Assembly: GCF_024502345.1 (NCBI RefSeq)
Contig: NZ_JALDNN010000001.1
DNA from: Escherichia coli
GTDB lineage: Bacteria > Pseudomonadota > Gammaproteobacteria > Enterobacterales > Enterobacteriaceae
Strand: one strand, 5' to 3'
Length of the DNA: 64,000 nucleotides
The notes under the pieces were generated by a model, which was not told the origin of the DNA, made no database searches, and saw only the letters and a list, made by a program, of their open reading frames with translations. Shown here in pieces: positions 769 through 61,283 of the stretch. Made by a program: the position numbers and the translations under genes. Each line of letters begins with the position of its first letter. Position 1 is the stretch's first letter.

Positions 769-3308
<2,540 letters not shown>

Positions 3309-3487
3309 TTACCAGGATGATTCTCAAAACAGCACAAATAATCAAAGATGATTTTTTCGGGAGCGATCCCGTTGACGCCAGAGCCACCAAGGGGTGACGC
3401 ACGTCACATTTCTATTCATAAGTAGCGTTAATCATTCATATCGCGAATATTTTCTTGTCAGCGAAAAAAATTGCGGATAAGGTGATG

Positions 3488-3574
3488 AACACATCAGATT
3501 TCCTGGTGTAACGAATTTTTTAAGTGCTTCTTGCTTAAGCAAGTTTCATCCCGACCCCCTCAGGGTCGGGATTT
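3488..3574 (+). ncRNA. dsrA: DsrA small regulatory RNA (Hfq-dependent regulator of rpoS and hns)
   Basis: Sequence AACACATCAGATTTCCTGGTGTAACGAATTTTTTAAGTGCTTCTTGCTTAAGCAAGTTTCATCCCGACCCCCTCAGGGTCGGGATTT matches DsrA as recalled, including the terminal intrinsic-terminator hairpin and T-run. Confidence 0.8.
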
Positions 3575-3587
3575 TTTTATTGTGCAT

Positions 3588-3815
3588 TCAACGATTCACT
3601 TCAGAGACGCTGAAGTCATGAATATCCAGTTCGAAGGCATCCGCCAATTCACGCCATGTATGATATTCACGTCCATCGACGCTAACGTGTTCAGAATCGT
3701 TCTGGCTGCGATGAACTTCGCTTTCGCTAATTTCATTGATCGCCGCCAGCAGGGCATCGACATCGACGCTGACCTCACGTTTTGCGGTATCGCTGTACTC
3801 TTTTGCGGTTTTCAT
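3588..3815 (-). CDS. yodD: Stress-induced small protein YodD
   Basis: ORF containing MKTAKEYSDTAKREV...; conserved location between dsrA and dsrB. Confidence 0.7.
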   Translation of the reverse strand: MKTAKEYSDTAKREVSVDVDALLAAINEISESEVHRSQNDSEHVSVDGREYHTWRELADAFELDIHDFSVSEVNR

Positions 3816-3887
3816 CATCTTTCCTCGCAACCGTTACTCTGTTGTTGCCGCCAGTCGTTAAGTCCGCCTGGCATCTCTTAAGTATAG

Positions 3888-4166
<279 letters not shown>

Positions 4167-40236: not shown

Positions 40237-41484
40237 ATGATATCAATCAGATACATGAGGATAAATATGCAAAAATCCTTCCGATTCACCAATTCATCCA
40301 TCAAAGCCCTTCCGGCAAACACAGATACCCGATCTACAGAGCTTGAGGTATCAGATACCGAGGTCATAGGCCTCAAATGTCTCTCAGGTCGAACGGGTAA
40401 CAAACGTTTCCTCCTGCGCTACACATTCCACGGTACCAAAAAAAGTATCAGTATTGGCAGATTCCCTGAAATCGATGTGGGGACAGCCCGTCAGATAGCT
40501 CGCCGTCATAAGGAGGCGATTGCACTTGGAAATGACCCCAAGGCAGAGCGCGATAATTATCGTGCGATGCCAACGCTTAGTGAGTTTTTTCACCTGACCT
40601 ATGTTCCGTTCATCAAGCGCCATAAAAAGTCCTGGGATAAGGATGTTCAGCGTTTCACGCAATACATTGAACCTCGTCTGGGGAAGATACGTTACTGCGA
40701 TCTCAGGGCCAGAGAGATACAACAGGTGCTGTTTGACATGCTGGAGGGGCGTATTCACGGGCAGCAATATGCGCCGTCTACCTGTAACAGAGCCCTTGCT
40801 ATTCTGAAAACGATGGGGCGTTATGCGTTGCGACAGGATGTGCTGGAAAAGAATGAAGCCGATAAGATCCCTTTACTGAAAGAGAATAATCAGCGGACGC
40901 GCTTTTTTGATGCTGATGAGATCAGGCGCATTCTTGACGCTGCTACCCAATATCCCAACAAAGCTGCCGGGGGATTGATAGCCATGTTGTTGTTAACCGG
41001 TACACGCAAATCAGAAATGCTTAATGTCAGGCATGAACATATCGACCGGGCCAATCGTACTCTGTTCATTCCTTATACAAAAAATGGTCGCAGTCGGACG
41101 GTATATCTAAGCGATGCAGCATTATCGATTATTGATGCTATCCCACGAGTTGGCAGTAATCCGTATCTGTTCGCCATTAAGGATAATGGAAAACCGATAT
41201 CGGAACCCCGATGGGCATATGAAAAAATACTGGCACAGTGCGGTATAGACAAGAATGAAGTCTGTTTTCACACCACACGTCATTCTGTTGCCTCTTTACT
41301 GGTTTCGAGTGGTCAATTCAGCCTGTATGACGTTAAAGCACAACTGGCGCATGCCAGTATTCAAAGTACGGAGCGCTACGCGAAATTGACACCAGAGCGT
41401 ATGCGTCAGACCGGGCAGGGCGTAACTGACCTTCTTTTGAACACCGTTACTGCCGGTAACAATGATGATTTTAGCACCCCTTGA
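40237..41484 (+). CDS. int: P4-type tyrosine recombinase / integrase (probable start MQKSFRFTNSSIKALP at about 40267)
   Basis: C-terminal catalytic region with HTTRHSVASLL and LAHASIQSTERYAKL; immediately next to a tRNA gene. Confidence 0.85.
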   Translation: MISIRYMRINMQKSFRFTNSSIKALPANTDTRSTELEVSDTEVIGLKCLSGRTGNKRFLLRYTFHGTKKSISIGRFPEIDVGTARQIARRHKEAIALGNDPKAERDNYRAMPTLSEFFHLTYVPFIKRHKKSWDKDVQRFTQYIEPRLGKIRYCDLRAREIQQVLFDMLEGRIHGQQYAPSTCNRALAILKTMGRYALRQDVLEKNEADKIPLLKENNQRTRFFDADEIRRILDAATQYPNKAAGGLIAMLLLTGTRKSEMLNVRHEHIDRANRTLFIPYTKNGRSRTVYLSDAALSIIDAIPRVGSNPYLFAIKDNGKPISEPRWAYEKILAQCGIDKNEVCFHTTRHSVASLLVSSGQFSLYDVKAQLAHASIQSTERYAKLTPERMRQTGQGVTDLLLNTVTAGNNDDFSTP

Positions 41485-42847: not shown

Positions 42848-43282
42848 ATGCAAACCCAATATGCCTTAAAACAGGCAGGATTAACTCTGCCTGTTACTAA
42901 AGAATTTCAGCAGCATATTACTACTCTTCTGGCAAATCAGGTTTTACAAAAAATAACTGAGGCAGTGGTTATTAATTTCCGCGATCCGGACTACAGTGCA
43001 GAATCCGGGGGCTTTCATCCCGTTGAAATACGGTTTATCCGTAAGAATAATGAATGGTATTTTGATTATGTCACAGATTTTAGTTATATGGGGCGTGTCT
43101 ACCCTGAGCTGGAAAAAGAAATTGATTTTTGCTGGTCGGGGAATTATGTCTTCCATTATCTGATTGGGGATATTTCACTGGCAGCAGAGAGGAATGAACT
43201 CTGGTCTCTGTGGGAGCGTAATTTTATGGAGTATCTCTCTATGGGGATTTACCGGGTAACGGTAACTGTGGAAAGTTGTTGA
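42848..43282 (+). CDS. Hypothetical protein
   Basis: 144-aa ORF, co-oriented. Confidence 0.45.
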   Translation: MQTQYALKQAGLTLPVTKEFQQHITTLLANQVLQKITEAVVINFRDPDYSAESGGFHPVEIRFIRKNNEWYFDYVTDFSYMGRVYPELEKEIDFCWSGNYVFHYLIGDISLAAERNELWSLWERNFMEYLSMGIYRVTVTVESC

Positions 43283-43583: not shown

Positions 43584-43811
43584 ATGTATAAAACTCGCGG
43601 TGAAAGGATCGCAGAAAGGCTGTGCTGGATATTACTTCAACTGTATACCGGTAATACGGTATCGGTTAATGATATATGTCAGCGTTTCGCGGTCAGTCGC
43701 CGAACCGGACAGCGTGATTTGTTGAGAGTTGAAACTGTAACGGAAACTATTTCACCTGGAAGGGTAAGGCTGGCAAATTTGATAAGGGAACGAGTTAGAC
43801 GAAATTTTTAA
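43584..43811 (+). pseudogene. Remnant of a WYL/BrxR-type regulator gene (N-terminal HTH only)
   Basis: 75-aa ORF resembling the N-terminal HTH of the 300-aa regulator at 44773-45675; no WYL domain follows. Confidence 0.4.
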
Positions 43812-43892: not shown

Positions 43893-44711
43893 CTACTCAA
43901 ATGATATTAATTTAGGTGCGACAGTGTTTTTATGACATGTTAAATTCGCAAGATCAATAATATCATGAAACAATTTTATGTCGTCGTCAGTGAGCTCTAC
44001 GTCTGGATCAGCTAAATCGGCACAGGTAACATTTAACCAGTGTGTTAATGAATCAATCCTGTTTGAAGTAATATATTCAGTGTGACCAATATCCCACTTC
44101 CAGTTGATCACCCGAGCAGGTCTGAATCTCACCTCCCGAACCCCAATTGGCGTTACTGACTCTACGAGAGGGTATATCGTGTTAAGTACTTTATCATGTT
44201 CACTGTAGATATTTAAATGCCCCATTTTTGAACCGTAAGCCATTTTCATTATGTTCTCTGTATAACTTGTTATTGGGGTGGCTCCGGCCATAGAGATTGT
44301 TAAGAGAATATTATCATTTTTAATATAGGGTAATGTATTGTTTATTAATCGAGTCCCTAAAGAATGACCCATTATGATCACATTACGCTTTTCTTTAACG
44401 TATATCTCGTTTATTACGTGTGCTAATTTTTCTCTGTTATTAACTGCTGCTTTCGTTGCATTATACCAGGCCTGACGCGCTTTAAATGGAATGGAGATTG
44501 ATGACAATAAAGGAGATGTTCTCAGGGGGAAGAGAGTATATAACCCCCACTTGTTCGCTATGTCAGAACTTAATATGGATAGTAGATTTGCCGATTCCCA
44601 TTTATAGTATCTGACATCAAGGCCACACCCTGCTTTAATTCGGTTAAACCATGATATATCATTTTCGGTCAGAAACCCTGATACAACAAGAAGAACCGGG
44701 CATTTTTTCAT
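43893..44711 (-). CDS. Alpha/beta-hydrolase-fold protein with GHSLG nucleophile elbow (esterase/lipase-like), function unknown
   Basis: 272-aa ORF; GxSxG motif GHSLG; candidate Asp/His downstream; immediately downstream of the WYL regulator gene. Confidence 0.6.
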   Translation of the reverse strand: MKKCPVLLVVSGFLTENDISWFNRIKAGCGLDVRYYKWESANLLSILSSDIANKWGLYTLFPLRTSPLLSSISIPFKARQAWYNATKAAVNNREKLAHVINEIYVKEKRNVIIMGHSLGTRLINNTLPYIKNDNILLTISMAGATPITSYTENIMKMAYGSKMGHLNIYSEHDKVLNTIYPLVESVTPIGVREVRFRPARVINWKWDIGHTEYITSNRIDSLTHWLNVTCADLADPDVELTDDDIKLFHDIIDLANLTCHKNTVAPKLISFE

Positions 44712-44772: not shown

Positions 44773-45675
44773 TTACGGGGCGTTACTTGGCTGGGTGTAA
44801 CGTTTCAGTGCGGATTGTATATCTTCAGCAAGTTGTTGACGGATTGAGGCCGGTTGTATTACTTCGACATCCGGTATCCAGTATTTCATTAAAGGCATTA
44901 TCTGATCTGTGTGTGTTACACGTGATATCACCAGTAAATCGCCAGACCGGGAAGTATGAATTATTTCCTGTCCTGGCAATAGATGACGGTGGGTAAACCA
45001 CGGAGCAACATGTGCGGAAACTGAAATAAGAACTTCGATAAGGTCTTCGCTATACCAGATACCATCTGTCTTTTCTATTTTTTCATTAATTTCGGGGATT
45101 ATCCTGAAAGAGATATTACTCATGCAAACGTCTTTGACAGATGAGATAACAAAGCTTTTTAATGTACTGTCATGGGCGGCAGCGAGATACCACAATCCGT
45201 TGTCATTAACCAGCCTGTATGGCTCAACAGCCCGAAACTCTTTATCTTTGTAATTAAAATTTACTTTCTTCTGTGACAGGATGGCATCGGATAATACATT
45301 CAGAATTGACATGAATGATCCGCAGTTTTCGTATGGACGTTGTTTTATCAGAAACGGGTTGTTTTTCGTGTTACCTAACAAAATACTCAGTAGTCTGTCA
45401 TCCCAGCGAGGGAACAGCCCTTCAATACCCAGGATGCGCGTGAAATGACGTAAATCAGCATTGCTGCGTTGACCGAGAACACCGTCAGACAGGCGATAGC
45501 GACCATTTTGTCGAATCAGATTAAGATAGGACAGGCGCTGAGTAAGATCACGACGGATAGTTTTTTCGCAAACGTTAAATTCCTCAGATAACTCCCGGAC
45601 GGCTAGTGACTCACCATTGTTCAGGCGAGTTAATATCAATCCGAGTCGATATCCAAGTTTATCGTGCTTACCCAT
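44773..45675 (-). CDS. HTH + WYL-domain transcriptional regulator (BrxR/CapW-like, defence-island regulator family)
   Basis: 300-aa ORF; N-terminal DeoR-like HTH ([22 protein letters not shown]), central WYL-type segment ([10 protein letters not shown]). Confidence 0.65.
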
Positions 45676-45723
45676 TCGTTTATCCGGTTAATGCCAGCGA
45701 AGAGGATATTTTCAGCAAAGTAA

Positions 45724-45836
45724 CGGACAGGATGAGTCCACTTTTACTGTGACGGAGAAAAAAATTAACTCATTAATTATCAATATATTAAAACATTGCT
45801 GGAATCATCGAATAACATGTGGACTCATCCTGTCCA
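45724..45836. promoter_or_regulatory. Perfect 17-bp inverted repeat pair upstream of the WYL regulator gene (candidate operator)
   Basis: GGACAGGATGAGTCCAC at 45724-45740 and its exact reverse complement at 45820-45836. Confidence 0.45.
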
Positions 45837-46054
45837 TGTGTATTTTTACGTTCAGGGTGATAATTATTATCCTGACCTGTACATGACATGTTTTTGCTGC
45901 ATATTTGACCATGCACTTTTGCCATCAAGTCGGAGAGGCAGGGGGGAACGTAAGATCCGAAGGTTAGAGAGGTTATCAGCAATTACAATGATGATTAATA
46001 TTTTCATAATATCGGAGAACATCATATTAGTTGAAATAACATAAAGGTGGTTCT

Positions 46055-46381
46055 ATGTATTTACATATCAGAAAGTATCAACTCGTAAATGCGAGATGGC
46101 GTGATGTCATTGATCTGACAGATTATGAAGAAACAATCAGGCAGGTTGTCGGTACATTATTTGGAAATGATTTTATTGAGGTCAGCGTTGAAACAAATTG
46201 TTTTACTCTGACAGTAAACAGTACAAGCAGTAAAATACCACACGGCATACTGGTGAATATGGGGAAAAGGCTGGCGGCTAATCTCCAGAGTATCACCTGT
46301 CATGCCATGCGGATCTATCATGTAAATGGCCATCCTGACGCGCGGCAGTTATTTCACTGTTTTGATGCCGATTGCCTGTGA
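46055..46381 (+). CDS. Hypothetical protein
   Basis: 108-aa ORF convergent with the piPolB gene; weak support. Confidence 0.3.
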   Translation: MYLHIRKYQLVNARWRDVIDLTDYEETIRQVVGTLFGNDFIEVSVETNCFTLTVNSTSSKIPHGILVNMGKRLAANLQSITCHAMRIYHVNGHPDARQLFHCFDADCL

Positions 46382-46429: not shown

Positions 46430-49093
46430 TCAGACTGGAAGACAGAATGTCGGATATTTACGGGCTATGATATCCATCAGTGACTTCATTCGCGGTGTTA
46501 CAGAACTAAATTTCATTTGGGGTATTTTTGCTCTTACCGCATTTTTTACATCAGTCACCGTTACTGAATAGCCTTCTGACGTCAGCCATTCAGCAACCTC
46601 TTTACAGGAATAACTTTTTTTATCTTTCAGCATCAGCCCCCATTGGCACTGAGTCAGCGCCCGGAGAAATAGTCTGACTAAAATATCATCACTACGTTTG
46701 CTTCCGACTTTTAGTTTCATATCAGAAAACACCGTCCGGCAATAGAGAAAATCACACCAGTCATCCCAGTCAGCCAGGGTCTTCAGTGTATGCGTTTGCC
46801 GCCAGTCGTCGAAAAGGGAGCGCTGCTGCAGAGCCTCTTCCATATTATCCCATGGGCGGGAAAACATCAGTAAATGCCCTTCATTCATGGCGGGCTGTAC
46901 GGGCTGGCGTTTGAAATCGAATTCCAGATTAAGACGGATATCCTGTTCCCGGGATACCAGATCGCTTTCCGACAGCCACATCTCACGCGTTGATATCAAC
47001 GTACTTCGGGATAAAGTCTGACCGGGTAAACGATTAAGGTAAAGATCTACCATATAGTCGTTATAGTCACTGCGTGGAATATCGGCAGGAGGTTTGACGC
47101 CAGCCCTGGCATGAACAACAGGTTTTCCCTGAATAGCTCTATAGGTTAACTGCCCCCGGGTTTTCATGGCGATAAGCTGGCTGACTTCATGCTTACATGT
47201 CAACATTGATGAACCCGGATCAACAATATCGCACAGCGACTGGAAGCGGGAAGACAGTGGACCGCTCATGTTTATCTTGTTAAGTGGGCAATTTGTCAAA
47301 AAGCCATCGGTTGTGACGCTGACAACCGATGAATCAGAAGGCAAAGCATTCATGAGTTCCCCGGCAACGGCGCGGATAAATCCCGTTACATGCGCAGCAA
47401 AGAATGGCTGAGTAACCGATGATGGTGGGAGGGATCTGTTTAATCCACGGGCAGTATCAAAGGCGGTTTTGGCGCGAAGGCCCTGAGCAAGTTTGCCATA
47501 AAGCGAGTTGCCAATTTCTTTCCAGAATTTCTCCTCCAGAGAACCTTTAATATGGCGATTACGGTTCTCACGGACCTGTTGAACAAAGGGAAGAAACACC
47601 GATGTTGATTCGCTGTTATGTGGGGAGGTGTCACAGATCCAGGGGACGATGATCCCATTATGGATCGTCATCTCTGCCCCGAGCGACAGAGCAAGTTCGA
47701 TTTCAGGTGCCGTTGCCCATGATTCGCCACTTAATGGAAAGAATAACCCATATTGATCGGTCCGAACCGGCAGGCTGGGATAGGGAACTGATTCCGGGAA
47801 CCGAAATGTGACAAGCGCAAATCCCATTACATGCCCACAGTAATCGTCCGGATTTTTACTGAGGCGGATGTTCCCGTAATCGGGTGTGAGGATATCTAAT
47901 AGCCCGGTGGTATACGCTCCAGCCAGATCGTAGTCATACCAGTGATCAGACGGTGTAACCCCCATCATAAAACACTCATTGCGTCCGCCGTGGTAACAGT
48001 TGATCGGGAACGTTTCAAACAACTCTCTTGAAGGAACACTGGCGGGGTTTTTAATCGTCCGGAATGCCTGTTTCTCCGTGAGCCAGAGTTCACGGGTTTT
48101 AATGTGTGTCCCAAGGCAGACTTCAGGAGACATATTGTTTTCTTTAAGTGTTTTGGTGAACCGTGAAACTGCCATCGCCCCGATGGTGGCGGGGACACGA
48201 TCAATCATCAGCTCCCGGGCGCAAAAATTGCGAACCTGTAAAGCATAACGAACCGCAATCTCGGCATCCCGCAGAGCATAGGCTTCAAACCCTGCTCTGT
48301 CGCCCAGAAGATATTCACGCATATTGGTTATGGAATAAGGTGCAGGAATGGTGAGTTTGGGAAGACCCAGTAATTCACCACATTCAGCCAGACCCATACC
48401 CCCGGGAGTGATAAGCAGTGTATCGATGAAAGCTACGTTACTGCAACGCGGAGGGGAAGTTCGTTTGTCAAACATTATCTGTTCAGTCTTTACGCGACGT
48501 TCCTGCTGTTCATCAAAATCGATACCGTAACGATTTTTGAAGCTGCTGACAGTACCGCGTATTCCTTTCAGAAGAATTTTGTAGTCTGACCAGAAATTGG
48601 CAAAGGAGGCGATATCCGCACGAATGAAATGCGCATATATATTAATAATACCGGGCCATTTTGTAATCACACCCGTTTCAAGAAGCGGTGTAATCGTTTG
48701 ACAGAGAAATTCCTTAAAAGACAGCCGGGATTTTTTCTGTGAGTCAGGTGGATAGATAATGTTCGATATACCTGTATTATCGGGTAAGATAACATAACTC
48801 TGATATGACAGAATATCATTCTGTCGTGTTTCAGGGTTGAAAACATATTCGGTATCAAAACCGATATGGAGTGTCAGGTCACTTGAAATAACAGATACTT
48901 TTTTTGATGCAGGTGGTATCACAGGATAATCATCAAGCGTTTTAGGTCTTTTACGATTGAGCGCTGGCTCTGAAGTCACGGACTGATACCCCGAGGCGGC
49001 AGCGAGGATGTCCTGCAAATTATTGCTCATAGTTAACTCCGAAAAAATGCCGGGAGCTGTGTCCCGGCATAAAGAATCAGGATTTAATAACAT
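46430..49093 (-). CDS. Family B DNA polymerase of the primer-independent (piPolB) type, pipolin hallmark gene
   Basis: 887-aa ORF; Exo I FDTE; motif B KEIGNSLYGK; motif C-like VTTDGF; KTRG in place of the canonical KxY motif (IAMKTRGQLTY). Confidence 0.8.
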   Translation of the reverse strand: MLLNPDSLCRDTAPGIFSELTMSNNLQDILAAASGYQSVTSEPALNRKRPKTLDDYPVIPPASKKVSVISSDLTLHIGFDTEYVFNPETRQNDILSYQSYVILPDNTGISNIIYPPDSQKKSRLSFKEFLCQTITPLLETGVITKWPGIINIYAHFIRADIASFANFWSDYKILLKGIRGTVSSFKNRYGIDFDEQQERRVKTEQIMFDKRTSPPRCSNVAFIDTLLITPGGMGLAECGELLGLPKLTIPAPYSITNMREYLLGDRAGFEAYALRDAEIAVRYALQVRNFCARELMIDRVPATIGAMAVSRFTKTLKENNMSPEVCLGTHIKTRELWLTEKQAFRTIKNPASVPSRELFETFPINCYHGGRNECFMMGVTPSDHWYDYDLAGAYTTGLLDILTPDYGNIRLSKNPDDYCGHVMGFALVTFRFPESVPYPSLPVRTDQYGLFFPLSGESWATAPEIELALSLGAEMTIHNGIIVPWICDTSPHNSESTSVFLPFVQQVRENRNRHIKGSLEEKFWKEIGNSLYGKLAQGLRAKTAFDTARGLNRSLPPSSVTQPFFAAHVTGFIRAVAGELMNALPSDSSVVSVTTDGFLTNCPLNKINMSGPLSSRFQSLCDIVDPGSSMLTCKHEVSQLIAMKTRGQLTYRAIQGKPVVHARAGVKPPADIPRSDYNDYMVDLYLNRLPGQTLSRSTLISTREMWLSESDLVSREQDIRLNLEFDFKRQPVQPAMNEGHLLMFSRPWDNMEEALQQRSLFDDWRQTHTLKTLADWDDWCDFLYCRTVFSDMKLKVGSKRSDDILVRLFLRALTQCQWGLMLKDKKSYSCKEVAEWLTSEGYSVTVTDVKNAVRAKIPQMKFSSVTPRMKSLMDIIARKYPTFCLPV

Positions 49094-50055: not shown

Positions 50056-51186
50056 TCATTTTTTCGTGTCATAACTTTCTATGACCTGAGAAACCACTGC
50101 GTGCGATGTCGCTGCATTGTGAAAAGCGTAGCGACGGGTCGCCGTGAGTGAATGGTGATTTAGCAGATGGGAAGCGATTGCAATATCCCCGGTCGCCTGT
50201 AGTACCCGGGTGGCAAAGGTACGGCGCAGGTCATGCATCCGCAGGTTATCAATGTTGGCATCCCGACAAATACGGGCAAAGGTTGCACGCGGATATGCCA
50301 GAGGGCGGGCATTGTCGGTTAGTTGTGGAAAAATGTAAGTTTTGCTGAGCATCAGGTCTTGCTGGCACTGGACAACTGCAATGGCTGGAGGTGCAAGTGG
50401 GCAGGTGAAAGGGTGTCCGGACTTTGTATCAGGCAGTATGAGTTGATGCATATCCGGGTGCCAGTACTCCCATTTCAGGGTACATACCTCACCAATACGC
50501 ATCCCCGTATAAAGAGCAAGCAATATAGAATCAGCTGCCGGTGTTTGCAGCGCTGTTGCCGCGTCAATAAAGCGCGGGATTTCTGTCGCTGATAGTGTGC
50601 GATAGCGAATGTTATTTTCTTTCAGATAGCGGACATGTGACATCGGGGAATGTGTGATCCATCCAGCACGTACTGCCAGAGAGCATATTTTGGACAATAT
50701 TGCGAGGATACGGTTTACTGTTGACGGACGTAATTTTTCCCGTAAGCCAGCAGCATATTGTTCTAGTTCCCCTGCCGTGATGTCGCGAAGTTGCCGCTTG
50801 CCCCAGAACGGGCGAACGTAGAGGTTGAGTTTTGACAACTCTGACTGAGGACTCTTTTTATACAACTGCAAATCCGGTAGCCACAGGTCATTGATGGCCT
50901 GTTCCACAGTGAATCGACGGGACTGAACCGCAAGACGATTTTTATCAGCAAGCAGTTTCATCACATGCTGACGGGCATCCTCAACGCAGAGCTGAGGGAA
51001 CTGACCCAGGGTTTCATATATACGCTGATTGTTTATAGTGGCACGAAAGGCCAGCGTGATCCGATTGGGATACACCAGAGCACGCAGGTTTTGGCAGTGA
51101 ATATCACGGTATTCCTGACAACCCGTGAGGGGATGTGGAAGTTGGTGAAGTGATTTGTTGCTGAAACGCAGATCCAGAATAGGCAT
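50056..51186 (-). CDS. Second tyrosine recombinase (XerC/D-like integrase)
   Basis: C-terminal catalytic motifs HDLRRTFATR, LLNHH, TATRRYAF. Confidence 0.8.
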   Translation of the reverse strand: MPILDLRFSNKSLHQLPHPLTGCQEYRDIHCQNLRALVYPNRITLAFRATINNQRIYETLGQFPQLCVEDARQHVMKLLADKNRLAVQSRRFTVEQAINDLWLPDLQLYKKSPQSELSKLNLYVRPFWGKRQLRDITAGELEQYAAGLREKLRPSTVNRILAILSKICSLAVRAGWITHSPMSHVRYLKENNIRYRTLSATEIPRFIDAATALQTPAADSILLALYTGMRIGEVCTLKWEYWHPDMHQLILPDTKSGHPFTCPLAPPAIAVVQCQQDLMLSKTYIFPQLTDNARPLAYPRATFARICRDANIDNLRMHDLRRTFATRVLQATGDIAIASHLLNHHSLTATRRYAFHNAATSHAVVSQVIESYDTKK

Positions 51187-57995: not shown

Positions 57996-60900
57996 ATGAT
58001 GAACCAGACGTACACGCCAAAATTCCAGGAAGAATACAGCGCCAAAATTCCGGCACTGACGTTACTGACCAGCCTCGGCTGGACGTTTTTATCTCCGAAA
58101 CAGATTATGGATTACCGGGGCTATAAACAGGATGAGGTGGTGCTGCGTCCGGTTCTGCGTGAAGAGCTGTCGAAGCGTTCCTTTATGGCGGGTGGCAAAA
58201 CCTGCCAGTTATCGGAAAAAGCACTGGATAACCTGATATCACAGGTCTGTTCTCCGGCGCTGAATGAAGGGCTGCTCAAAGCCAATGAACGGATGTATAA
58301 CCATCTGCTCTACGGTATCGCCGTCACGGAGTTTGTCGATGGCAAGAAGGTCAACCCCACCATTGCGCTGATCGACTGGGAACATCCGGAAAATAACCAG
58401 TTCCACTTTACTGAAGAATTTACGGTATTGCGGTCAGGTGGTGTTGAAACCCGGAGGCCAGATATTGTCTGCTTTGTTAATGGTATCCCGCTGGCTGTTA
58501 TTGAAGCGAAAAGCCCGGCTGGTCATGGCAAGAAAGGGCCAACCATTGACGAGGGGATATCCCAGAGTATCCGCAACCAGTTCAACGATGAAATCCCGCA
58601 GCTGTTTGTCTACAGCCAGTTATTACTTTCGATTAACGGTCATGACGGGCGCTACGGTACATGCCATACGCCAATGAAATTCTGGGCGGCATGGCGCGAA
58701 GAAGATATTACCGATGCGCAGATGTATGCTCTGCGCAACCATCCTTTATCGACTGAACAAATTCATGCGTTGTTTGATCATCGTCCATCAGCCGATCTCA
58801 ACTGGTACCAACAGTTAATCGCCGCCGGTGAACTGGCTGTCAGTGGACAGGACAAACTGCTCATCAGCCTGCTTTCGCCGGAACGTCTGCTGGAGATGAC
58901 CCGCTTCTTCACTCTGTTTGATAAAAAGACCGGGAAAATTGTCGCCCGCTATCAGCAGGTGTTCGGTATTAAAAGACTGCTGGAGCGCATCAGTACCCGC
59001 AGACCCGATGGGGGCAGGGAAGGTGGTGTTATCTGGCATACCACCGGCTCTGGCAAATCGTACACCATGGTGTTCCTCAGCAAGGCGCTGATTCTTCATG
59101 ACAGCCTGAAGCGGTGTCGTATCGTGGTGGTGACGGACCGTATCGATCTTGAAGAACAGCTCAGCAGTACCTTTGCATCCGGCGGCGAGTTGGCCGGGAA
59201 AAAAGACAAAGCCAATGCAATGGCGACATCCGGGCAGATGCTGGCGAAACAGATTGGCTCCGGTAAAGAACGCATCATTTTCACCCTAATCCAGAAATTT
59301 AATTCAGCGACAAAACTTCCTGAATGCGTCAATACCAGCCCCGATATCATCGTTCTGGTTGATGAAGGACACCGTAGCCAGGGTGGTGAGAACCATGTGC
59401 GAATGAAACTGGCACTGCCGAACGCCGCCTTTGTGGCATTTACTGGTACGCCATTGCTAAAAGAAGATAAGACCACCAATAAATTCGGACCGATTGTCCA
59501 CGCTTATACCATGCAGCGAGCGGTAGAAGATAAAGCCGTTACACCTTTGCTGTATGAAGAACGTATTCCCGACCTTGAGGTTAACGATCGGGCAATAGAT
59601 GCCTGGTTTGATCGTATTACCGATGGGTTAAGCGAAGCGCAAAAAGCCGACCTGAAGCGTAAATATGCCCGTAAAGGTGAGGTTTATAGTGCAGATGATC
59701 GCATCCGTCTGATCGCACTCGATATCGCCACGCACTTCTCGAAGAATATTGATGAGGGACTGAAAGGCCAGCTTGCCTGCGACAGCAAGATTTCCGCCAT
59801 CAAATATAAAAAGTATCTTGATGAAGCCGGGTTGTTTGAGTCAGCTGTAGTTATCAGCCCGCCGGATACCCGGGAAGGGAATACCGAAGTGGATGAAAGC
59901 AAACTGCCGGAAGTGACGAAATGGTGGAAGGATAATGTCGGCACGCAGGATGAGTCTGTGTATACCCGTAATGTCATCAGTCGTTTCGATACCGATGAGA
60001 AGCTCAAATTGCTGATAGTCGTTGATAAACTGCTCACCGGGTTTGATGAGCCGAAGAATACCGTGCTGTATATCGACAAGCCGCTTAAGTCCCACAACCT
60101 TATCCAGGCGATTGCGCGGGTGAACCGACTGCATCCACTAAAAAAGTTCGGTCTGCTGATTGATTATCGCGGTATTCTGGCTGAGCTGGACACGACTATC
60201 GGCAAATATCAGGACCTCGCCTCCCGAACTCAGGGCGGATACGATATCAAAGATATTGACGGGCTGTACAGCGCCATGAGCTCTGAATACAAGCGCCTGC
60301 CGCATCTGTATAACCAGCTGTGGGCCATATTTGCCGGTGTTAAAAACAAAAATGATACTGAGCAGTTACGTGCGGTACTGGTGCCTAAAATGGAAGAACG
60401 TGACGGAGAGATGGTCGATATCCATCAGAAAACCCGTGATGATTTCTTCGAGGCGTTAACGGCCTTTGCCGGATGCCTGAAAGTGGCACTGCAGTCCGCT
60501 ACCTTCTTCACCGACAAGAGCTTTACGGAACAAGACCGAAATCTCTATAAAGAAACCGTAAAACAGATGTCCAGCCTGCGCCAGTGGGCGATGCAGGTAA
60601 GTGGAGAGCAGGTCAATTATGACGACTACGCTGAGCAGGTGAAAAAACTGCTGGATAAGCATGTCACCGGCGTTGAAGTTCGTGAACCGGATGGCGTGTA
60701 TGAAGTCGGTAAAATGGGCAAGAGCGAAAAGCCCGAAGAGTGGGACAACAATAAAACCCGCAATGAAACCGACATCATTAAAACCCGTGTGACAAAGATG
60801 ATTGAGCAGGAATTGCGTGATGACCCGTATGCTCAGGAGGCATTTTCAAAACTCCTGCGTATGGCTATCGAAGAGGCTGAAAAACTGTTTGACCATCCGC

Positions 60901-61283
60901 TGAAACAGTACCTTTTGTTCCGTGAATTTGAAGAACAGGTTGAAGCCCGTAAGCTCAGCGATATCCCGGATGCACTGGCGGTAAACAAGCATGCTCAGGC
61001 GTATTACGGTGTATTTAAAAAAGAGCTACCTGAGGTTTTTGCGGTAAACGACGTTCAGGTGCAGGATAAGTGGACGAAGCTGGCTTTTGAAGTGGACAAC
61101 ATTATCGTCAAAGCGGTGGCAGAAAACTCCCTGAACCCCCAGGACATTGAGAAAGTCGTTAAGACAAGTCTGCTACCACTGCTGTTTACGGCCTGCCGGG
61201 AAATTGGTGCCGGAATGAATCAGGTTAACCGTATTGTTGAAACCATCATCCAGATACTGCGCGTTGGTTTGATGAAATCATGA
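57996..61283 (+). CDS. hsdR: Type I restriction-modification system endonuclease/helicase subunit HsdR
   Basis: 1095-aa ORF; Walker A TGSGKS, DEAH-type motif VLVDEGHRSQ, helicase C region. Confidence 0.9.
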   Translation: MMNQTYTPKFQEEYSAKIPALTLLTSLGWTFLSPKQIMDYRGYKQDEVVLRPVLREELSKRSFMAGGKTCQLSEKALDNLISQVCSPALNEGLLKANERMYNHLLYGIAVTEFVDGKKVNPTIALIDWEHPENNQFHFTEEFTVLRSGGVETRRPDIVCFVNGIPLAVIEAKSPAGHGKKGPTIDEGISQSIRNQFNDEIPQLFVYSQLLLSINGHDGRYGTCHTPMKFWAAWREEDITDAQMYALRNHPLSTEQIHALFDHRPSADLNWYQQLIAAGELAVSGQDKLLISLLSPERLLEMTRFFTLFDKKTGKIVARYQQVFGIKRLLERISTRRPDGGREGGVIWHTTGSGKSYTMVFLSKALILHDSLKRCRIVVVTDRIDLEEQLSSTFASGGELAGKKDKANAMATSGQMLAKQIGSGKERIIFTLIQKFNSATKLPECVNTSPDIIVLVDEGHRSQGGENHVRMKLALPNAAFVAFTGTPLLKEDKTTNKFGPIVHAYTMQRAVEDKAVTPLLYEERIPDLEVNDRAIDAWFDRITDGLSEAQKADLKRKYARKGEVYSADDRIRLIALDIATHFSKNIDEGLKGQLACDSKISAIKYKKYLDEAGLFESAVVISPPDTREGNTEVDESKLPEVTKWWKDNVGTQDESVYTRNVISRFDTDEKLKLLIVVDKLLTGFDEPKNTVLYIDKPLKSHNLIQAIARVNRLHPLKKFGLLIDYRGILAELDTTIGKYQDLASRTQGGYDIKDIDGLYSAMSSEYKRLPHLYNQLWAIFAGVKNKNDTEQLRAVLVPKMEERDGEMVDIHQKTRDDFFEALTAFAGCLKVALQSATFFTDKSFTEQDRNLYKETVKQMSSLRQWAMQVSGEQVNYDDYAEQVKKLLDKHVTGVEVREPDGVYEVGKMGKSEKPEEWDNNKTRNETDIIKTRVTKMIEQELRDDPYAQEAFSKLLRMAIEEAEKLFDHPLKQYLLFREFEEQVEARKLSDIPDALAVNKHAQAYYGVFKKELPEVFAVNDVQVQDKWTKLAFEVDNIIVKAVAENSLNPQDIEKVVKTSLLPLLFTACREIGAGMNQVNRIVETIIQILRVGLMKS

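What the first reader, a model, noticed from the sequence alone, without database searches (positions are those of the whole stretch)
45724..45836. Perfect 17-bp inverted repeats upstream of the WYL regulator gene
GGACAGGATGAGTCCAC (45724-45740) and its exact reverse complement (45820-45836) lie 49-161 bp upstream of the regulator start codon on the minus strand. WYL/BrxR-type regulators typically autoregulate by binding palindromic operators in their own promoter, so these are candidate operator half-sites. A 113-bp miniature inverted-repeat element is the alternative explanation.
Basis: seen in the sequence. Interest (0 to 1): 0.5.

Follow-up and report, generated by a model that had tools for sequence, protein, structure and literature searches.

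The report
Paired operators of a pipolin WYL regulator
The two perfect 17-bp inverted repeats are two separate, conserved binding sites for the neighbouring WYL-type regulator of an E. coli pipolin (a mobile defence island), one of them built into the regulator's own promoter in the way known for the DNA-damage activators DriD and PafBC; this is a new example of a known kind of control element, not a transposon-like repeat.

Summary
The repeat is real but 1 bp off. The arms are 45725-45741 and 45819-45835, 17/17 complementary, with a 77-nt AT-rich spacer. It lies in a pipolin at tRNA-Leu, upstream of an HTH-WYL-WCX regulator (44773-45675, minus strand).

It is not a MITE. It is single-copy in 183 of 5,426 E. 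coli genomes and always in this context. It is not an invertible switch: 0 of 174 genomes carry the flipped form.

Orthologous regulators (57-98% identity, about 10 genera) keep both sites: consensus GGACAGGTTGAGTCC and its reverse complement, 82-96 bp apart. The proximal core always starts 63-64 nt before the ATG. Each arm has its own dyad (TGGAC-N7-GTCCA), so each is a whole operator, not a half-site.

The core GAC-N7-GTC matches the published DriD site. The proximal site sits where a -35 would be, and GTC-N12-(NAnnnT -10) holds in 15 of 15 promoters. My count gives the same spacing for DriD and PafBC promoters. The regulator's fold is closest to DriD and PafBC, not BrxR.

An IHF-consensus site (45778-45790) lies between the arms and is conserved in most lineages.

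Best reading: paired autoregulatory operators. Whether the regulator activates or represses is unresolved; I favour activation. Looping between the sites is not established.

The parts
45725..45741 (-). Promoter-proximal operator (O_P). Read with the gene it is GTGGACTCATCCTGTCC, with core GGAC-N7-GTCC at 45725-45739. It covers about -38 to -24 of the predicted promoter, where a -35 would lie.
   Evidence: Perfect inverted-repeat arm. The core starts 63-64 nt before the ATG in every enterobacterial orthologue (in L014 after moving the start to the ATG seen). It is followed by 11 nt and then a -10-like hexamer in every lineage. No variation in 7 E. coli variants.
45819..45835 (-). Distal operator (O_D). 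Read with the gene it is GGACAGGATGAGTCCAC. It has the same motif in inverted orientation, 96 bp (centre to centre) upstream of O_P.
   Evidence: Perfect inverted-repeat arm. Conserved in orthologues 82-96 bp from O_P, and 111 bp away in a 47%-identity homologue. Absent from two 35%-identity homologues. No variation in 7 E. coli variants.
45742..45818 (.). AT-rich spacer between the operators (74% A+T).
   Evidence: Its sequence diverges between genera while the arms do not. Only 2 variable columns among E. coli variants, one of them a 1-nt indel.
45778..45790 (+). IHF-consensus site TATCAATATATTA (WATCAANNNNTTR, 9 of 9 specified positions), near the midpoint between the operators.
   Evidence: 5 matches in the 64-kb window, 3.2 expected, so the match alone is weak; at the homologous place, always 38 nt upstream of the O_P core, the match is 9/9 in the window, Citrobacter, L071 and L082, and 8/9 in L006, L012, L017 and L019, with the N4 varying. 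It is weak in the Buttiauxella group and in L089. IHF binding is inferred.
45708..45713 (-). Predicted -10 hexamer GAAAAT of the regulator promoter. The predicted transcription start is near 45701 and the 5' UTR is about 25 nt. There is no recognisable -35.
   Evidence: Not found by the consensus scan, which requires a -35. Identified by conservation: (G/C)A(T/A)AAT exactly 11 nt after the O_P core in 13 of 13 lineages. NAnnnT occurs 12 nt after GTC in 14 of 15 scored promoters (15 of 15 once the L090 site is used), against 0-4 of 15 at any other offset. The transcription start has not been mapped.
44773..45675 (-). Gene of the HTH-WYL-WCX regulator (300 aa), the presumed binder of both operators.
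   Evidence: Pfam: HTH_DeoR 5.6e-8, WYL 2.5e-10, WCX 1.7e-9. PADLOC WYL models match. RefSeq calls it a 'helix-turn-helix transcriptional regulator'. Foldseek best hits: DriD 2e-12, PafBC 4e-10, BrxR 1.5e-7, CapW 6.5e-7.
43893..44711 (-). Downstream gene, probably co-transcribed: a DUF726/LCAT-like alpha/beta hydrolase (272 aa). It is the likely regulated cargo in E. coli.
   Evidence: Pfam: DUF726 1.5e-6, LCAT 2.6e-5. Same strand, 61 nt after the regulator's stop. Other lineages carry different genes in this slot: a GTPase in L004 and small unknown proteins in L005/L006. Co-transcription is inferred.
45847..45852 (+). Candidate divergent -10 (TACGTT) 11 nt after O_D when read on the plus strand, pointing toward ORF108 (46055-46381). 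Low confidence.
   Evidence: It has the same operator-N11-TAnnnT geometry, but only in E. coli and Citrobacter (the two lineages that have a divergent ORF108) and in Yersinia. It is absent from the other 8 lineages.

Best explanation
The two arms are two complete operators for the dimeric HTH-WYL-WCX regulator encoded just downstream in this E. coli pipolin. Each arm is a 15-17-bp pseudo-palindrome, TGGAC-N7-GTCCA, of the same GAC-N7-GTC type as the published DriD site.

The proximal operator is part of the regulator's own promoter. It occupies the position of the missing -35 element, and its GTC triplet sits exactly 12 nt upstream of a conserved -10 hexamer (GAAAAT at 45708-45713). A regulator bound there therefore controls transcription of the regulator gene and the hydrolase gene that follows it.

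I think the regulator most likely recruits RNA polymerase at this promoter when its WYL domain binds a nucleic-acid ligand, as DriD, PafBC and SiwR do. I put about 0.55 on that, against about 0.30 for plain steric autorepression as in BrxR or CapW.

The distal operator lies 82-96 bp upstream in inverted orientation, with an IHF-type bend site between the two. It is an auxiliary site found only in the pipolin clade. It most likely lets a second dimer cooperate with the first through bent or looped DNA, sharpening or limiting autoregulation.

Shown here: the sites, their conservation, their fixed geometry relative to the -10, and the family of the protein. Inferred: binding by this protein, the sign of regulation, the ligand, IHF binding and looping.
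For: 1. Conservation. Both sites are kept in front of orthologous regulators of 57-98% identity in Citrobacter, Cedecea, Yersinia, Buttiauxella, Intestinirhabdus, Limnobaculum, Mangrovibacter and metagenomic relatives, while flanks and spacer diverge.
2. The arms change together between lineages (TAAG in both arms of L014, TTGTG in both arms of L006). But arm-to-arm identity (11-15 of 15) is no better than arm-to-consensus identity (10-15 of 15). That is what a shared protein-recognition motif predicts, and not what base-pairing predicts.
3. Within E. coli there are 0 variable positions in either arm, the -10 or the IHF-like core, against 38 variable columns in the 419-nt region.
4. Geometry. 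NAnnnT occurs at offset 12 after GTC in 14 of 15 promoters as scored, and 15 of 15 once L090 is taken, against 0-4 of 15 at other offsets. The set includes homologues of 35-47% identity in other gene contexts and a second promoter in related pipolins.
5. Published parallels. The DriD site is ATACGAC(N7)GTCGTAT, it overlaps the -35 position at a constant distance from the -10, and DriD promoters lack a -35 (PMC13004042). The PafBC motif is tGTCgg(N10)tA(N3)T (PMC8635444). My count on the promoter sequences printed gives G(T/G)C-N12-CAAnnn for driD, didA and bapE. SiwR binds a 19-bp palindrome between -35 and -10 and is an activator.
6. The protein. The PDB profile search hits PafBC (7.6e-11) and DriD (about 7e-9) and gives no BrxR or CapW hit. 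The fold search ranks DriD, then PafBC, then BrxR, then CapW. In the HMMER alignment, DriD ligand residues Y168, R176, Y192, R204 and W206 align with Y142, K145, Y163, K173 and F175 (read by eye).
7. IHF-like core: 9/9 or 8/9 at the homologous position in 8 lineages.
Against: There are no binding, transcription-start or expression data, so the promoter is predicted from conservation only. The sigma-70 consensus scan found nothing here.

A repressor would also be expected to overlap the -35 region, and the WYL regulators known from defence islands (BrxR, CapW) are repressors. DriD-type or PafBC-type activation has been shown only in Caulobacter and mycobacteria, not with E. coli sigma-70.

Helical phasing is not established. 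Spacings of 82, 83, 85, 94, 95 and 96 bp fit 8 or 9 turns within about 0.2 turn, but they come from only a few independent indels, and the 47%-identity homologue has 111 bp, about 10.6 turns.

The IHF-like motif is weak in the Buttiauxella group and in L089. A single consensus match in AT-rich DNA is not rare: 5 in the window against 3.2 expected.

The conserved asymmetry of the central 7 bp and the constant inverted orientation of the two sites are not explained by a symmetric dimer alone. The AlphaFold model is of moderate quality (pLDDT 75.6, pTM 0.45).
Confidence: 0.8

Rival explanations
1. Autorepression of the BrxR or CapW kind. The regulator binds both operators without ligand. O_P blocks RNA polymerase at the -35/spacer region, and O_D plus an IHF bend form a repression loop. 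A signal such as phage infection or DNA damage releases the protein. The parts are the same as in the best explanation; the sign of regulation is opposite.
For: O_P spans about -38 to -24 of the predicted promoter, a classical repressor position. BrxR and CapW, the WYL regulators of defence islands, are repressors that bind inverted repeats at their own promoters. The pipolin is a defence island: a type I restriction-modification system lies in the window, and PMC11551731 describes pipolins this way. Two operators with a bend site between them are typical of repression loops (general knowledge, from memory).
Against: The promoter has no recognisable -35 in any lineage, so it would be weak without help. 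The exact GTC-N12-(-10) register is kept across 35-100% identity and at a second promoter, which is stricter than occlusion needs, and it equals the register of the DriD and PafBC activator promoters. The protein is closer to DriD and PafBC than to BrxR or CapW. The BrxR operator layout is not present.
Confidence: 0.3
2. The two arms are half-sites of a single palindromic operator contacted by one regulator dimer.
For: The arms are perfect reverse complements. WYL regulators do bind inverted repeats.
Against: The centres are 96 bp apart. Published WYL operators are 19-27 bp in total. Each arm has its own internal dyad, GGAC-N7-GTCC. Single sites suffice upstream of homologues L090 and L091 and at the second pipolin promoter.
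Confidence: 0.03
3. A 111-113-bp miniature inverted-repeat transposable element (MITE) or another dispersed repeat that happened to land upstream of the regulator.
For: Terminal inverted repeats flank a short AT-rich, non-coding segment.
Against: There are only two copies of the 17-mer in 64 kb, even with 3 mismatches. The intergenic region is present in 183 of 5,426 complete E. coli genomes, with a median of one place per genome, never on plasmids and always between the same genes. The pair is syntenic and diverges along with the regulator across genera. The inner arm is locked to the -10 of the gene. A metagenome scan for the paired motif returned the regulator context (8 loci) plus other loci with different sequences and no detected WYL gene.
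Confidence: 0.02
4. An invertible promoter switch. A site-specific recombinase flips the 77-bp segment between the inverted repeats, with IHF assisting, to turn the regulator or the divergent ORF108 on or off.
For: Perfect inverted repeats flank an AT-rich segment with an IHF-consensus site, between divergent genes, in an element that encodes two tyrosine recombinases.
Against: A query carrying the flipped form matched 174 E. coli genomes across at least 80% of its length at only 84% identity. The one hit of higher identity covered less than 80% of the query. So no genome holds the flipped form. All 10 aligned lineages have the spacer, including the asymmetric IHF-like core, in the same orientation relative to the gene. 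The arms are imperfect in most lineages. The predicted -10 lies outside the segment.
Confidence: 0.02
5. An RNA or DNA secondary structure: the arms pair in a transcript (5' UTR hairpin, processing site or terminator after piPolB) or extrude as a cruciform. A related possibility is a replication origin for the excised pipolin.
For: If transcribed, the unit folds into a 19-bp stem, -42.2 kcal/mol, z = -6.1. piPolB lies upstream on the same strand. An AT-rich core flanked by repeats with an IHF site resembles an origin.
Against: The stability follows trivially from the repeat. In orthologues the arms match each other no better than they match the family consensus, with 2-4 mismatches in 15. Each arm's internal dyad is unexplained by long-range pairing. 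The conserved -10 lies downstream of the proximal arm, so the regulator's mRNA should not contain the arms. No T-run follows the proximal arm, and there is no Rfam match. Single sites with the same geometry occur in non-pipolin contexts.
Confidence: 0.04

Closest known systems
DriD operator and DriD-dependent promoters (Caulobacter crescentus; PMC9186387, PMC13004042)
   Same: The site is a pseudo-palindrome with a GAC-N7-GTC core (DriD: ATACGAC(N7)GTCGTAT; here TGGAC-N7-GTCCA). It overlaps the position of a missing -35 and lies at a constant distance from the -10. By my count on the printed sequences, the distance is 12 nt from G(T/G)C to the hexamer in both. The regulator has the same wHTH-WYL-WCX build and is the best structural match. 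DriD also acts on its own promoter, and the bapE promoter has two putative sites.
   Different: Only about 15% sequence identity. The flanking half-site bases differ (TGGAC against ATACGAC). Here there are two inverted sites 82-96 bp apart with an IHF-like site between them. The host is E. coli sigma-70 and the regulator belongs to a mobile element rather than being a chromosomal DNA-damage regulator. ssDNA sensing and activation are untested here.
PafBC -26 element and 'sigma adaptation' promoters (mycobacteria; PMC8635444); SiwR (PMC10693628)
   Same: These promoters lack a -35, and a GTC-containing element sits at a fixed distance from the -10. tGTCgg(N10)tA(N3)T has the same GTC-N12-hexamer register as here. 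PafBC is the best PDB hit by sequence profile. SiwR is a homodimer that binds a 19-bp palindrome between -35 and -10.
   Different: PafBC is a pseudo-heterodimer that contacts DNA through one HTH only and cannot bind DNA without RNA polymerase. Here there is a full dyad, as expected for a homodimer. No distal site or IHF site has been described for PafBC or SiwR.
BrxR R-BOX operators (pEFER and Acinetobacter BREX; PMC9122601) and CapW operators
   Same: An HTH-WYL-WCX regulator encoded at the head of variable defence-island genes, with inverted repeats in its own upstream region and autoregulation expected.
   Different: BrxR sites are 10-11-bp repeats separated by 5 bp, one dimer per pair, placed just downstream of the promoter, and they repress. 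That layout is absent here. The protein is more distant from BrxR and CapW (Foldseek 1e-7 to 1e-6 against 1e-12 for DriD; no hit by sequence profile).
Two-operator loops helped by a DNA-bending protein (for example GalR with HU, or NagC with CAP; recalled from memory, not checked here)
   Same: Two like operators about 8-11 helical turns apart, with a bend site between them, at an autoregulated promoter.
   Different: No evidence that the WYL regulator forms tetramers. The phasing is only partly consistent: 82-96 bp fits, 111 bp does not.

Membership tests
HTH-WYL-WCX transcription factors (the regulator gene) | N-terminal (winged) HTH DNA-binding domain | tested here: met
   Pfam HTH_DeoR 5.6e-8, residues 10-61.
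HTH-WYL-WCX transcription factors (the regulator gene) | WYL domain followed by a WCX dimerisation domain | tested here: met
   WYL 2.5e-10 (residues 124-183) and WCX 1.7e-9 (residues 212-290). Fold matches to DriD, PafBC, BrxR and CapW.
DriD/PafBC-type WYL-activator promoter | Operator with a GAC-N7-GTC pseudo-palindrome (DriD) or a GTC-containing element (PafBC) | tested here: met
   GGAC-N7-GTCC in both arms and in all enterobacterial orthologues. Published motifs.
DriD/PafBC-type WYL-activator promoter | Site covers the -35 position at a constant distance from the -10, and the promoter lacks a -35 consensus | tested here: met
   GTC-N12-NAnnnT in 14 of 15 promoters as scored, 15 of 15 once L090 is taken, against 0-4 of 15 at other offsets. 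The hexamer at the 16-18-nt positions matches TTGACA at only 2 of 6 in E. coli (by inspection). The consensus scan found no promoter here. The -10 is predicted, not mapped.
DriD/PafBC-type WYL-activator promoter | Ligand (ssDNA) pocket residues in the WYL domain | tested here: inconclusive
   In the HMMER alignment, DriD Y168, R176, Y192, R204 and W206 (roles) align with Y142, K145, Y163, K173 and F175. R178 and R207 are not matched. Read by eye from a profile alignment.
DriD/PafBC-type WYL-activator promoter | Ligand-dependent activation of transcription | not testable with these tools
   Needs in vitro transcription or reporter assays.
BrxR-type operator (R-BOX) | Two 10-11-bp inverted repeats separated by about 5 bp, bound by one dimer | tested here: not met
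   The arms are 17 bp and 77 bp apart, and each has a 4-5-bp dyad with a 7-bp gap. BrxR layout from PMC9122601.
BrxR-type operator (R-BOX) | The regulator is a close relative of BrxR | tested here: not met
   No BrxR hit in the PDB sequence or profile searches. In the fold search it ranks below DriD and PafBC by about 5 orders of magnitude in E-value.
BrxR-type operator (R-BOX) | Heads a recognised phage-defence system | tested here: inconclusive
   The downstream DUF726-like hydrolase has no PADLOC or NCBIfam match. The island does carry a type I restriction-modification system elsewhere.
MITE or dispersed repeat | Many copies at unrelated genomic positions | tested here: not met
   Two arms only in the window. 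The region occurs at a median of one place per genome in 183 E. coli genomes, always in the same context.
Invertible DNA switch | Both orientations found among genomes or reads | tested here: not met
   None of 174 E. coli genomes carries the flipped form. The orientation is the same in 10 lineages. Read-level heterogeneity was not testable.
IHF-assisted loop between two operators | IHF consensus between the sites, conserved | tested here: met
   9/9 match in the window. 9/9 or 8/9 at the homologous position in 8 lineages, weak in the others. Binding was not tested.
IHF-assisted loop between two operators | Operators kept on the same helical face | tested here: inconclusive
   Spacings of 82, 83, 85, 94, 95 and 96 bp are near 8 or 9 turns, but 111 bp in L089 is about 10.6 turns. 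Few independent events.

The most novel reading that the evidence does not exclude
The core WYL regulator of enterobacterial pipolins is a DriD-like sensor of single-stranded DNA. It activates promoters that lack a -35 together with E. coli sigma-70 RNA polymerase, using the same GTC-N12-(-10) register as DriD and PafBC. It would thereby couple expression of itself and of an exchangeable downstream cargo gene to DNA damage, phage attack or replication by the pipolin's own primer-independent polymerase. In this window the cargo is a DUF726-like hydrolase; in relatives it is a GTPase or small secreted proteins. The distal operator and the IHF bend would act as a built-in limiter of the positive feedback. 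This would extend the DriD/PafBC type of activation to Enterobacteria and to a mobile element, and would give pipolins their first defined regulatory circuit.
Probability: 0.35. Interest if true: 0.65.

Novelty: new member of a known kind. Interest (0 to 1): 0.45.

Why it matters
Pipolins are widespread mobile defence islands. Their WYL gene is one of the few core genes (PMC11551731), yet a full-text search found no paper that mentions pipolins together with a promoter and a regulator.

The paired sites give a concrete, testable cis-element. They define a predicted promoter and a small predicted regulon: the regulator's own operon, plus a second promoter in non-E. coli pipolins.

The register shared with DriD and PafBC promoters suggests that this mode of promoter recognition by WYL factors is older and more widespread than the two model systems. 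For annotation, the result shows that the repeat is not a mobile repeat. It also shows that 'BrxR-like repressor' is not a safe default label for WYL regulators in defence islands.

Tried and rejected
- MITE or dispersed repeat: rejected on copy number and synteny.
- Invertible switch: I built the flipped form and searched 5,426 E. coli genomes. No genome carries it.
- RNA element: no Rfam match. The strong fold is a trivial result of the repeat, and orthologue arms do not pair better than they match the motif.
- The distal site as a general divergent promoter: the mirror-image -10 exists only in E. coli, Citrobacter and Yersinia. I kept it only as a low-confidence, lineage-specific idea.
- Strict helical phasing: attractive for spacings of 82-96 bp but contradicted by 111 bp in L089. 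Downgraded to 'not established'.
- Extra operator copies elsewhere in the window: none with 3 or fewer mismatches, apart from one poor match at 60933 inside the type I R-M restriction-subunit ORF (57996-61283).
- ORF108 (46055-46381) as a homologue of the 106-108-aa genes behind the third site in other pipolins: no similarity.
- A dual distant-repeat layout in Campylobacterota homologues: not found. They have single GAC-N8-GTC palindromes instead.
- The search for related loci with the 16-sequence alignment failed for lack of a conserved stretch. It worked with 9 sequences.
- The degenerate paired-motif scan of metagenomes mostly returned inverted-repeat families with no detected WYL gene, from termite-gut and soil samples. 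I did not pursue these.

Full report
**Observation.** The window carries a perfect 17-nt inverted repeat, GGACAGGATGAGTCCAC at 45725-45741 and its reverse complement at 45819-45835, separated by 77 nt of 74% A+T DNA. The next base outward does not pair, so 17 nt is the full length. Allowing three mismatches, these are the only two copies in 64 kb; shuffles gave a mean of 0.12, and none of 100 reached two.

**Context.** The window is E. coli chromosome: uvrY, uvrC and pgsA, followed (in the identical region of strain 214-4) by tRNA-Gly, tRNA-Cys and tRNA-Leu. An integrated pipolin follows, with:
- an integrase at 40237-41484;
- a DUF2787 protein at 42848-43282;
- a primer-independent PolB-like ORF at 46430-49093;
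- a second recombinase at 50056-51186;
- a type I restriction-modification system.

PMC11551731 names the integrases, DUF2787 and a WYL protein as the conserved pipolin core in Gammaproteobacteria. The 300-aa ORF at 44773-45675 (minus strand) is HTH_DeoR + WYL + WCX. A DUF726/LCAT-like hydrolase follows it on the same strand. The repeat lies in the 379-bp gap between this regulator and a divergent 108-aa ORF.

**It is not a mobile repeat or a switch.**
- The intergenic region occurs in 183 of 5,426 complete E. coli genomes, with a median of one place per genome, never on a plasmid, and between the same genes.
- I built the form in which the segment between the arms is flipped and searched the same genomes. 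All 174 full-length matches had only 84% identity, which is what the unflipped form gives. No genome holds the flipped form.
- There is no Rfam match.
- The strong predicted RNA stem (z = -6.1) follows trivially from the repeat.

**Comparative evidence.** I collected homologues of the regulator.
- In Citrobacter, Cedecea, Yersinia, Buttiauxella, Intestinirhabdus, Limnobaculum, Mangrovibacter and metagenomic relatives (57-98% protein identity), two sites in inverted orientation are present upstream of the gene.
- The consensus is GGACAGGTTGAGTCC for the distal site (read with the gene) and its reverse complement for the proximal site.
- The proximal core starts 63 or 64 nt before the ATG in every case (L014 after moving its start to the ATG seen). 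The distal core lies 82-96 bp further upstream.
- The spacer and flanks align poorly.
- Substitutions are shared by the two arms of a lineage (TAAG in L014, TTGTG in L006). Even so, the arms resemble each other (11-15 of 15) no more than each resembles the family consensus (10-15 of 15). That fits a common protein-recognition motif and does not fit selection for pairing.
- Among seven E. coli variants of the region there are 38 variable columns. None falls in either arm.

**The promoter.** Exactly 11 nt after the proximal core, every lineage has (G/C)A(T/A)AAT; in the window this is GAAAAT at 45708-45713 on the minus strand.
- I scored NAnnnT at every offset from 6 to 19 after the GTC triplet in 15 promoters. 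Offset 12 scored 14 of 15; the miss was a mis-picked site in L090, which also fits. Every other offset scored 0-4 of 15.
- The set includes homologues of 35-47% identity in different gene neighbourhoods (L089-L091).
- It also includes a third copy of the motif that I found 2-3 kb away in non-E. coli pipolins. That copy sits in front of a pair of small signal-peptide genes and is followed by N11 and TAGGCT or TATGCT.
- No lineage has a recognisable -35. With a 17-nt spacer, the -35 position falls on the last base of GAC plus five bases of the N7 tract. The consensus scanner accordingly found no promoter here.

**Comparison with known WYL regulators.**
- DriD binds ATACGAC(N7)GTCGTAT. Its target promoters lack a -35, and the site overlaps the -35 position at a constant distance from the -10 (PMC13004042).
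- From the promoter sequences printed in that paper I count G(T/G)C-N12-CAATCT, CAAGGT and CAAGCC for the three sequences the methods label driD, didA and bapE. The authors' 'optimised -35' construct replaces the last base of GAC plus five bases of N7, the same register as here.
- The PafBC motif tGTCgg(N10)tA(N3)T (PMC8635444) also puts 12 nt between GTC and the hexamer.
- SiwR, a homodimeric WYL activator, binds a 19-bp palindrome between -35 and -10.
- BrxR, by contrast, binds 10-11-bp repeats 5 bp apart placed just after the promoter, and it represses.
- A profile of the pipolin regulator family hits PafBC (7.6e-11) and DriD (about 7e-9) in the PDB, and neither BrxR nor CapW.
- An AlphaFold model (pLDDT 75.6) matches DriD best (2e-12), then PafBC, then BrxR (1.5e-7) and CapW.
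- Several DriD ligand-contact residues align with conserved Tyr, Lys and Phe residues here.

**The distal site and the spacer.**
- The plus strand at 45778-45790 reads TATCAATATATTA, a complete match to the IHF core WATCAANNNNTTR. On its own this is weak: the window has five matches against 3.2 expected.
- At the homologous position, always 38 nt upstream of the proximal core, four lineages match 9 of 9 and four match 8 of 9, with the N4 varying. The motif is weak in the Buttiauxella group and in L089.
- The operator spacings cluster at 82-85 and 94-96 bp, near 8 and 9 helical turns, which suggests same-face placement. The underlying events are few, however, and a 47%-identity homologue has 111 bp, about 10.6 turns. 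I therefore treat looping as a reasonable but unproven role.
- Two 35%-identity homologues have only the proximal site. The distal site is thus an addition specific to the pipolin clade.
- In about 30%-identity Campylobacterota homologues, a single GAC-N8-GTC palindrome lies within 150 nt upstream in 11 of 25 loci, a 13-fold enrichment. The half-site therefore seems to be a family trait.

**Conclusion.** The arms are two whole operators of the adjacent regulator, not half-sites and not a MITE. The proximal one is a structural part of a promoter that lacks a -35, in the DriD/PafBC register. This makes ligand-dependent activation the more likely mode (about 0.55), ahead of BrxR-like autorepression (about 0.30). 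Binding, the transcription start, the ligand, IHF involvement and looping are all inferred. This is a new member of a known class with an unusual two-site layout. It is of moderate interest, mainly because I found no description of pipolin regulation in the searched literature.

Noticed in passing
window 43584-43811 (+): A 75-aa ORF encodes an HTH-only protein. It is 77% identical to a 78-aa gene in related pipolins (L005 6237-6473), and that protein is 36% identical to residues 3-63 of the WYL regulator. So it is a stand-alone paralogue of the regulator's DNA-binding domain. RefSeq does not annotate it in strain 214-4. It might compete for the same operators.
   Followed up: partly
L005 6210-6224; also L006 6248, L011/L013/L015/L016 about 7081, L012 6248, L019 6251, L053 6440, L066 10204, L079 8856: A third copy of the operator motif (GGACATAACCTGTCC when read with the downstream gene). 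It lies between the HTH-only gene and a pair of small signal-peptide genes (106-108 and 130 aa) and is followed by N11 and TAGGCT or TATGCT. It looks like a second promoter of the regulon in non-E. coli pipolins. E. coli lacks both the site and these genes.
   Followed up: partly
window 45852-45875 (with 45847-45852): An imperfect 24-bp palindrome, TCAGGGTGATAATTATTATCCTGA, directly follows a candidate divergent -10 (TACGTT) located 11 nt after the distal operator on the plus strand. It is present only in E. coli and Citrobacter, the lineages that have ORF108. It may be an operator for another regulator.
   Followed up: no
window 46055-46381 (+): ORF108 is a lineage-specific gene inserted between piPolB and the WYL regulator. 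It has no Pfam-like, NCBIfam or convincing PADLOC match (HamB 0.003 only) and is unrelated to the 106-108-aa genes of other pipolins. The half of the intergenic region next to it is far more variable among E. coli strains than the half next to the regulator: 34 against 4 variable columns.
   Followed up: partly
L003 (E. coli PSJ-29) 3295-3992; L002 (PK8241) 2219-2731: In strain PSJ-29 an IS1 replaces the hydrolase, the WYL regulator and both operators. In PK8241 the hydrolase gene is annotated only as a 513-nt ORF. So this module is dispensable in some strains.
   Followed up: no
L004 1144-2028; L005 4920-5315; L006 4905-5339; L090 3904-6894; L091 1408-4354: The gene slot directly after the WYL regulator holds different cargo in different lineages: a DUF726 hydrolase, a small GTPase, 131-144-aa unknown proteins, dynamin-like GTPases, and a GTPase plus a NERD/UvrD-like helicase. 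This pattern is typical of a regulator heading exchangeable defence-like genes.
   Followed up: no
L054-L088 (for example L070 3394-3486, L065 4145-4245): The degenerate paired-motif scan of metagenomes also returned about 28 loci with no detected WYL gene. Some have true inverted repeats such as GGACAGGATCGGTCC...GGACCGATCCTGTCC, 78-90 bp apart, in gene-poor contigs from termite-gut samples. Another recurring family comes from soil contigs. Their sequences differ from the pipolin sites and they were not identified.
   Followed up: no
window 46430-49093 (-): The 887-aa ORF that I take to be the pipolin's primer-independent PolB, judging from its position and the pipolin literature, is annotated only as 'hypothetical protein' in RefSeq (866 aa, with a later start) and has no PADLOC hit. 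I did not verify it with a domain search.
   Followed up: no
L043 upstream region, -110 and -86 from the gene start: One Campylobacterota homologue has two tandem TGGACA-N-TGTC(C) sites 24 bp apart (TTGGACAATTTTTGTCCACATTATTTGGACATCTTTTGTCTC). This is a different two-site layout for the same half-site.
   Followed up: no
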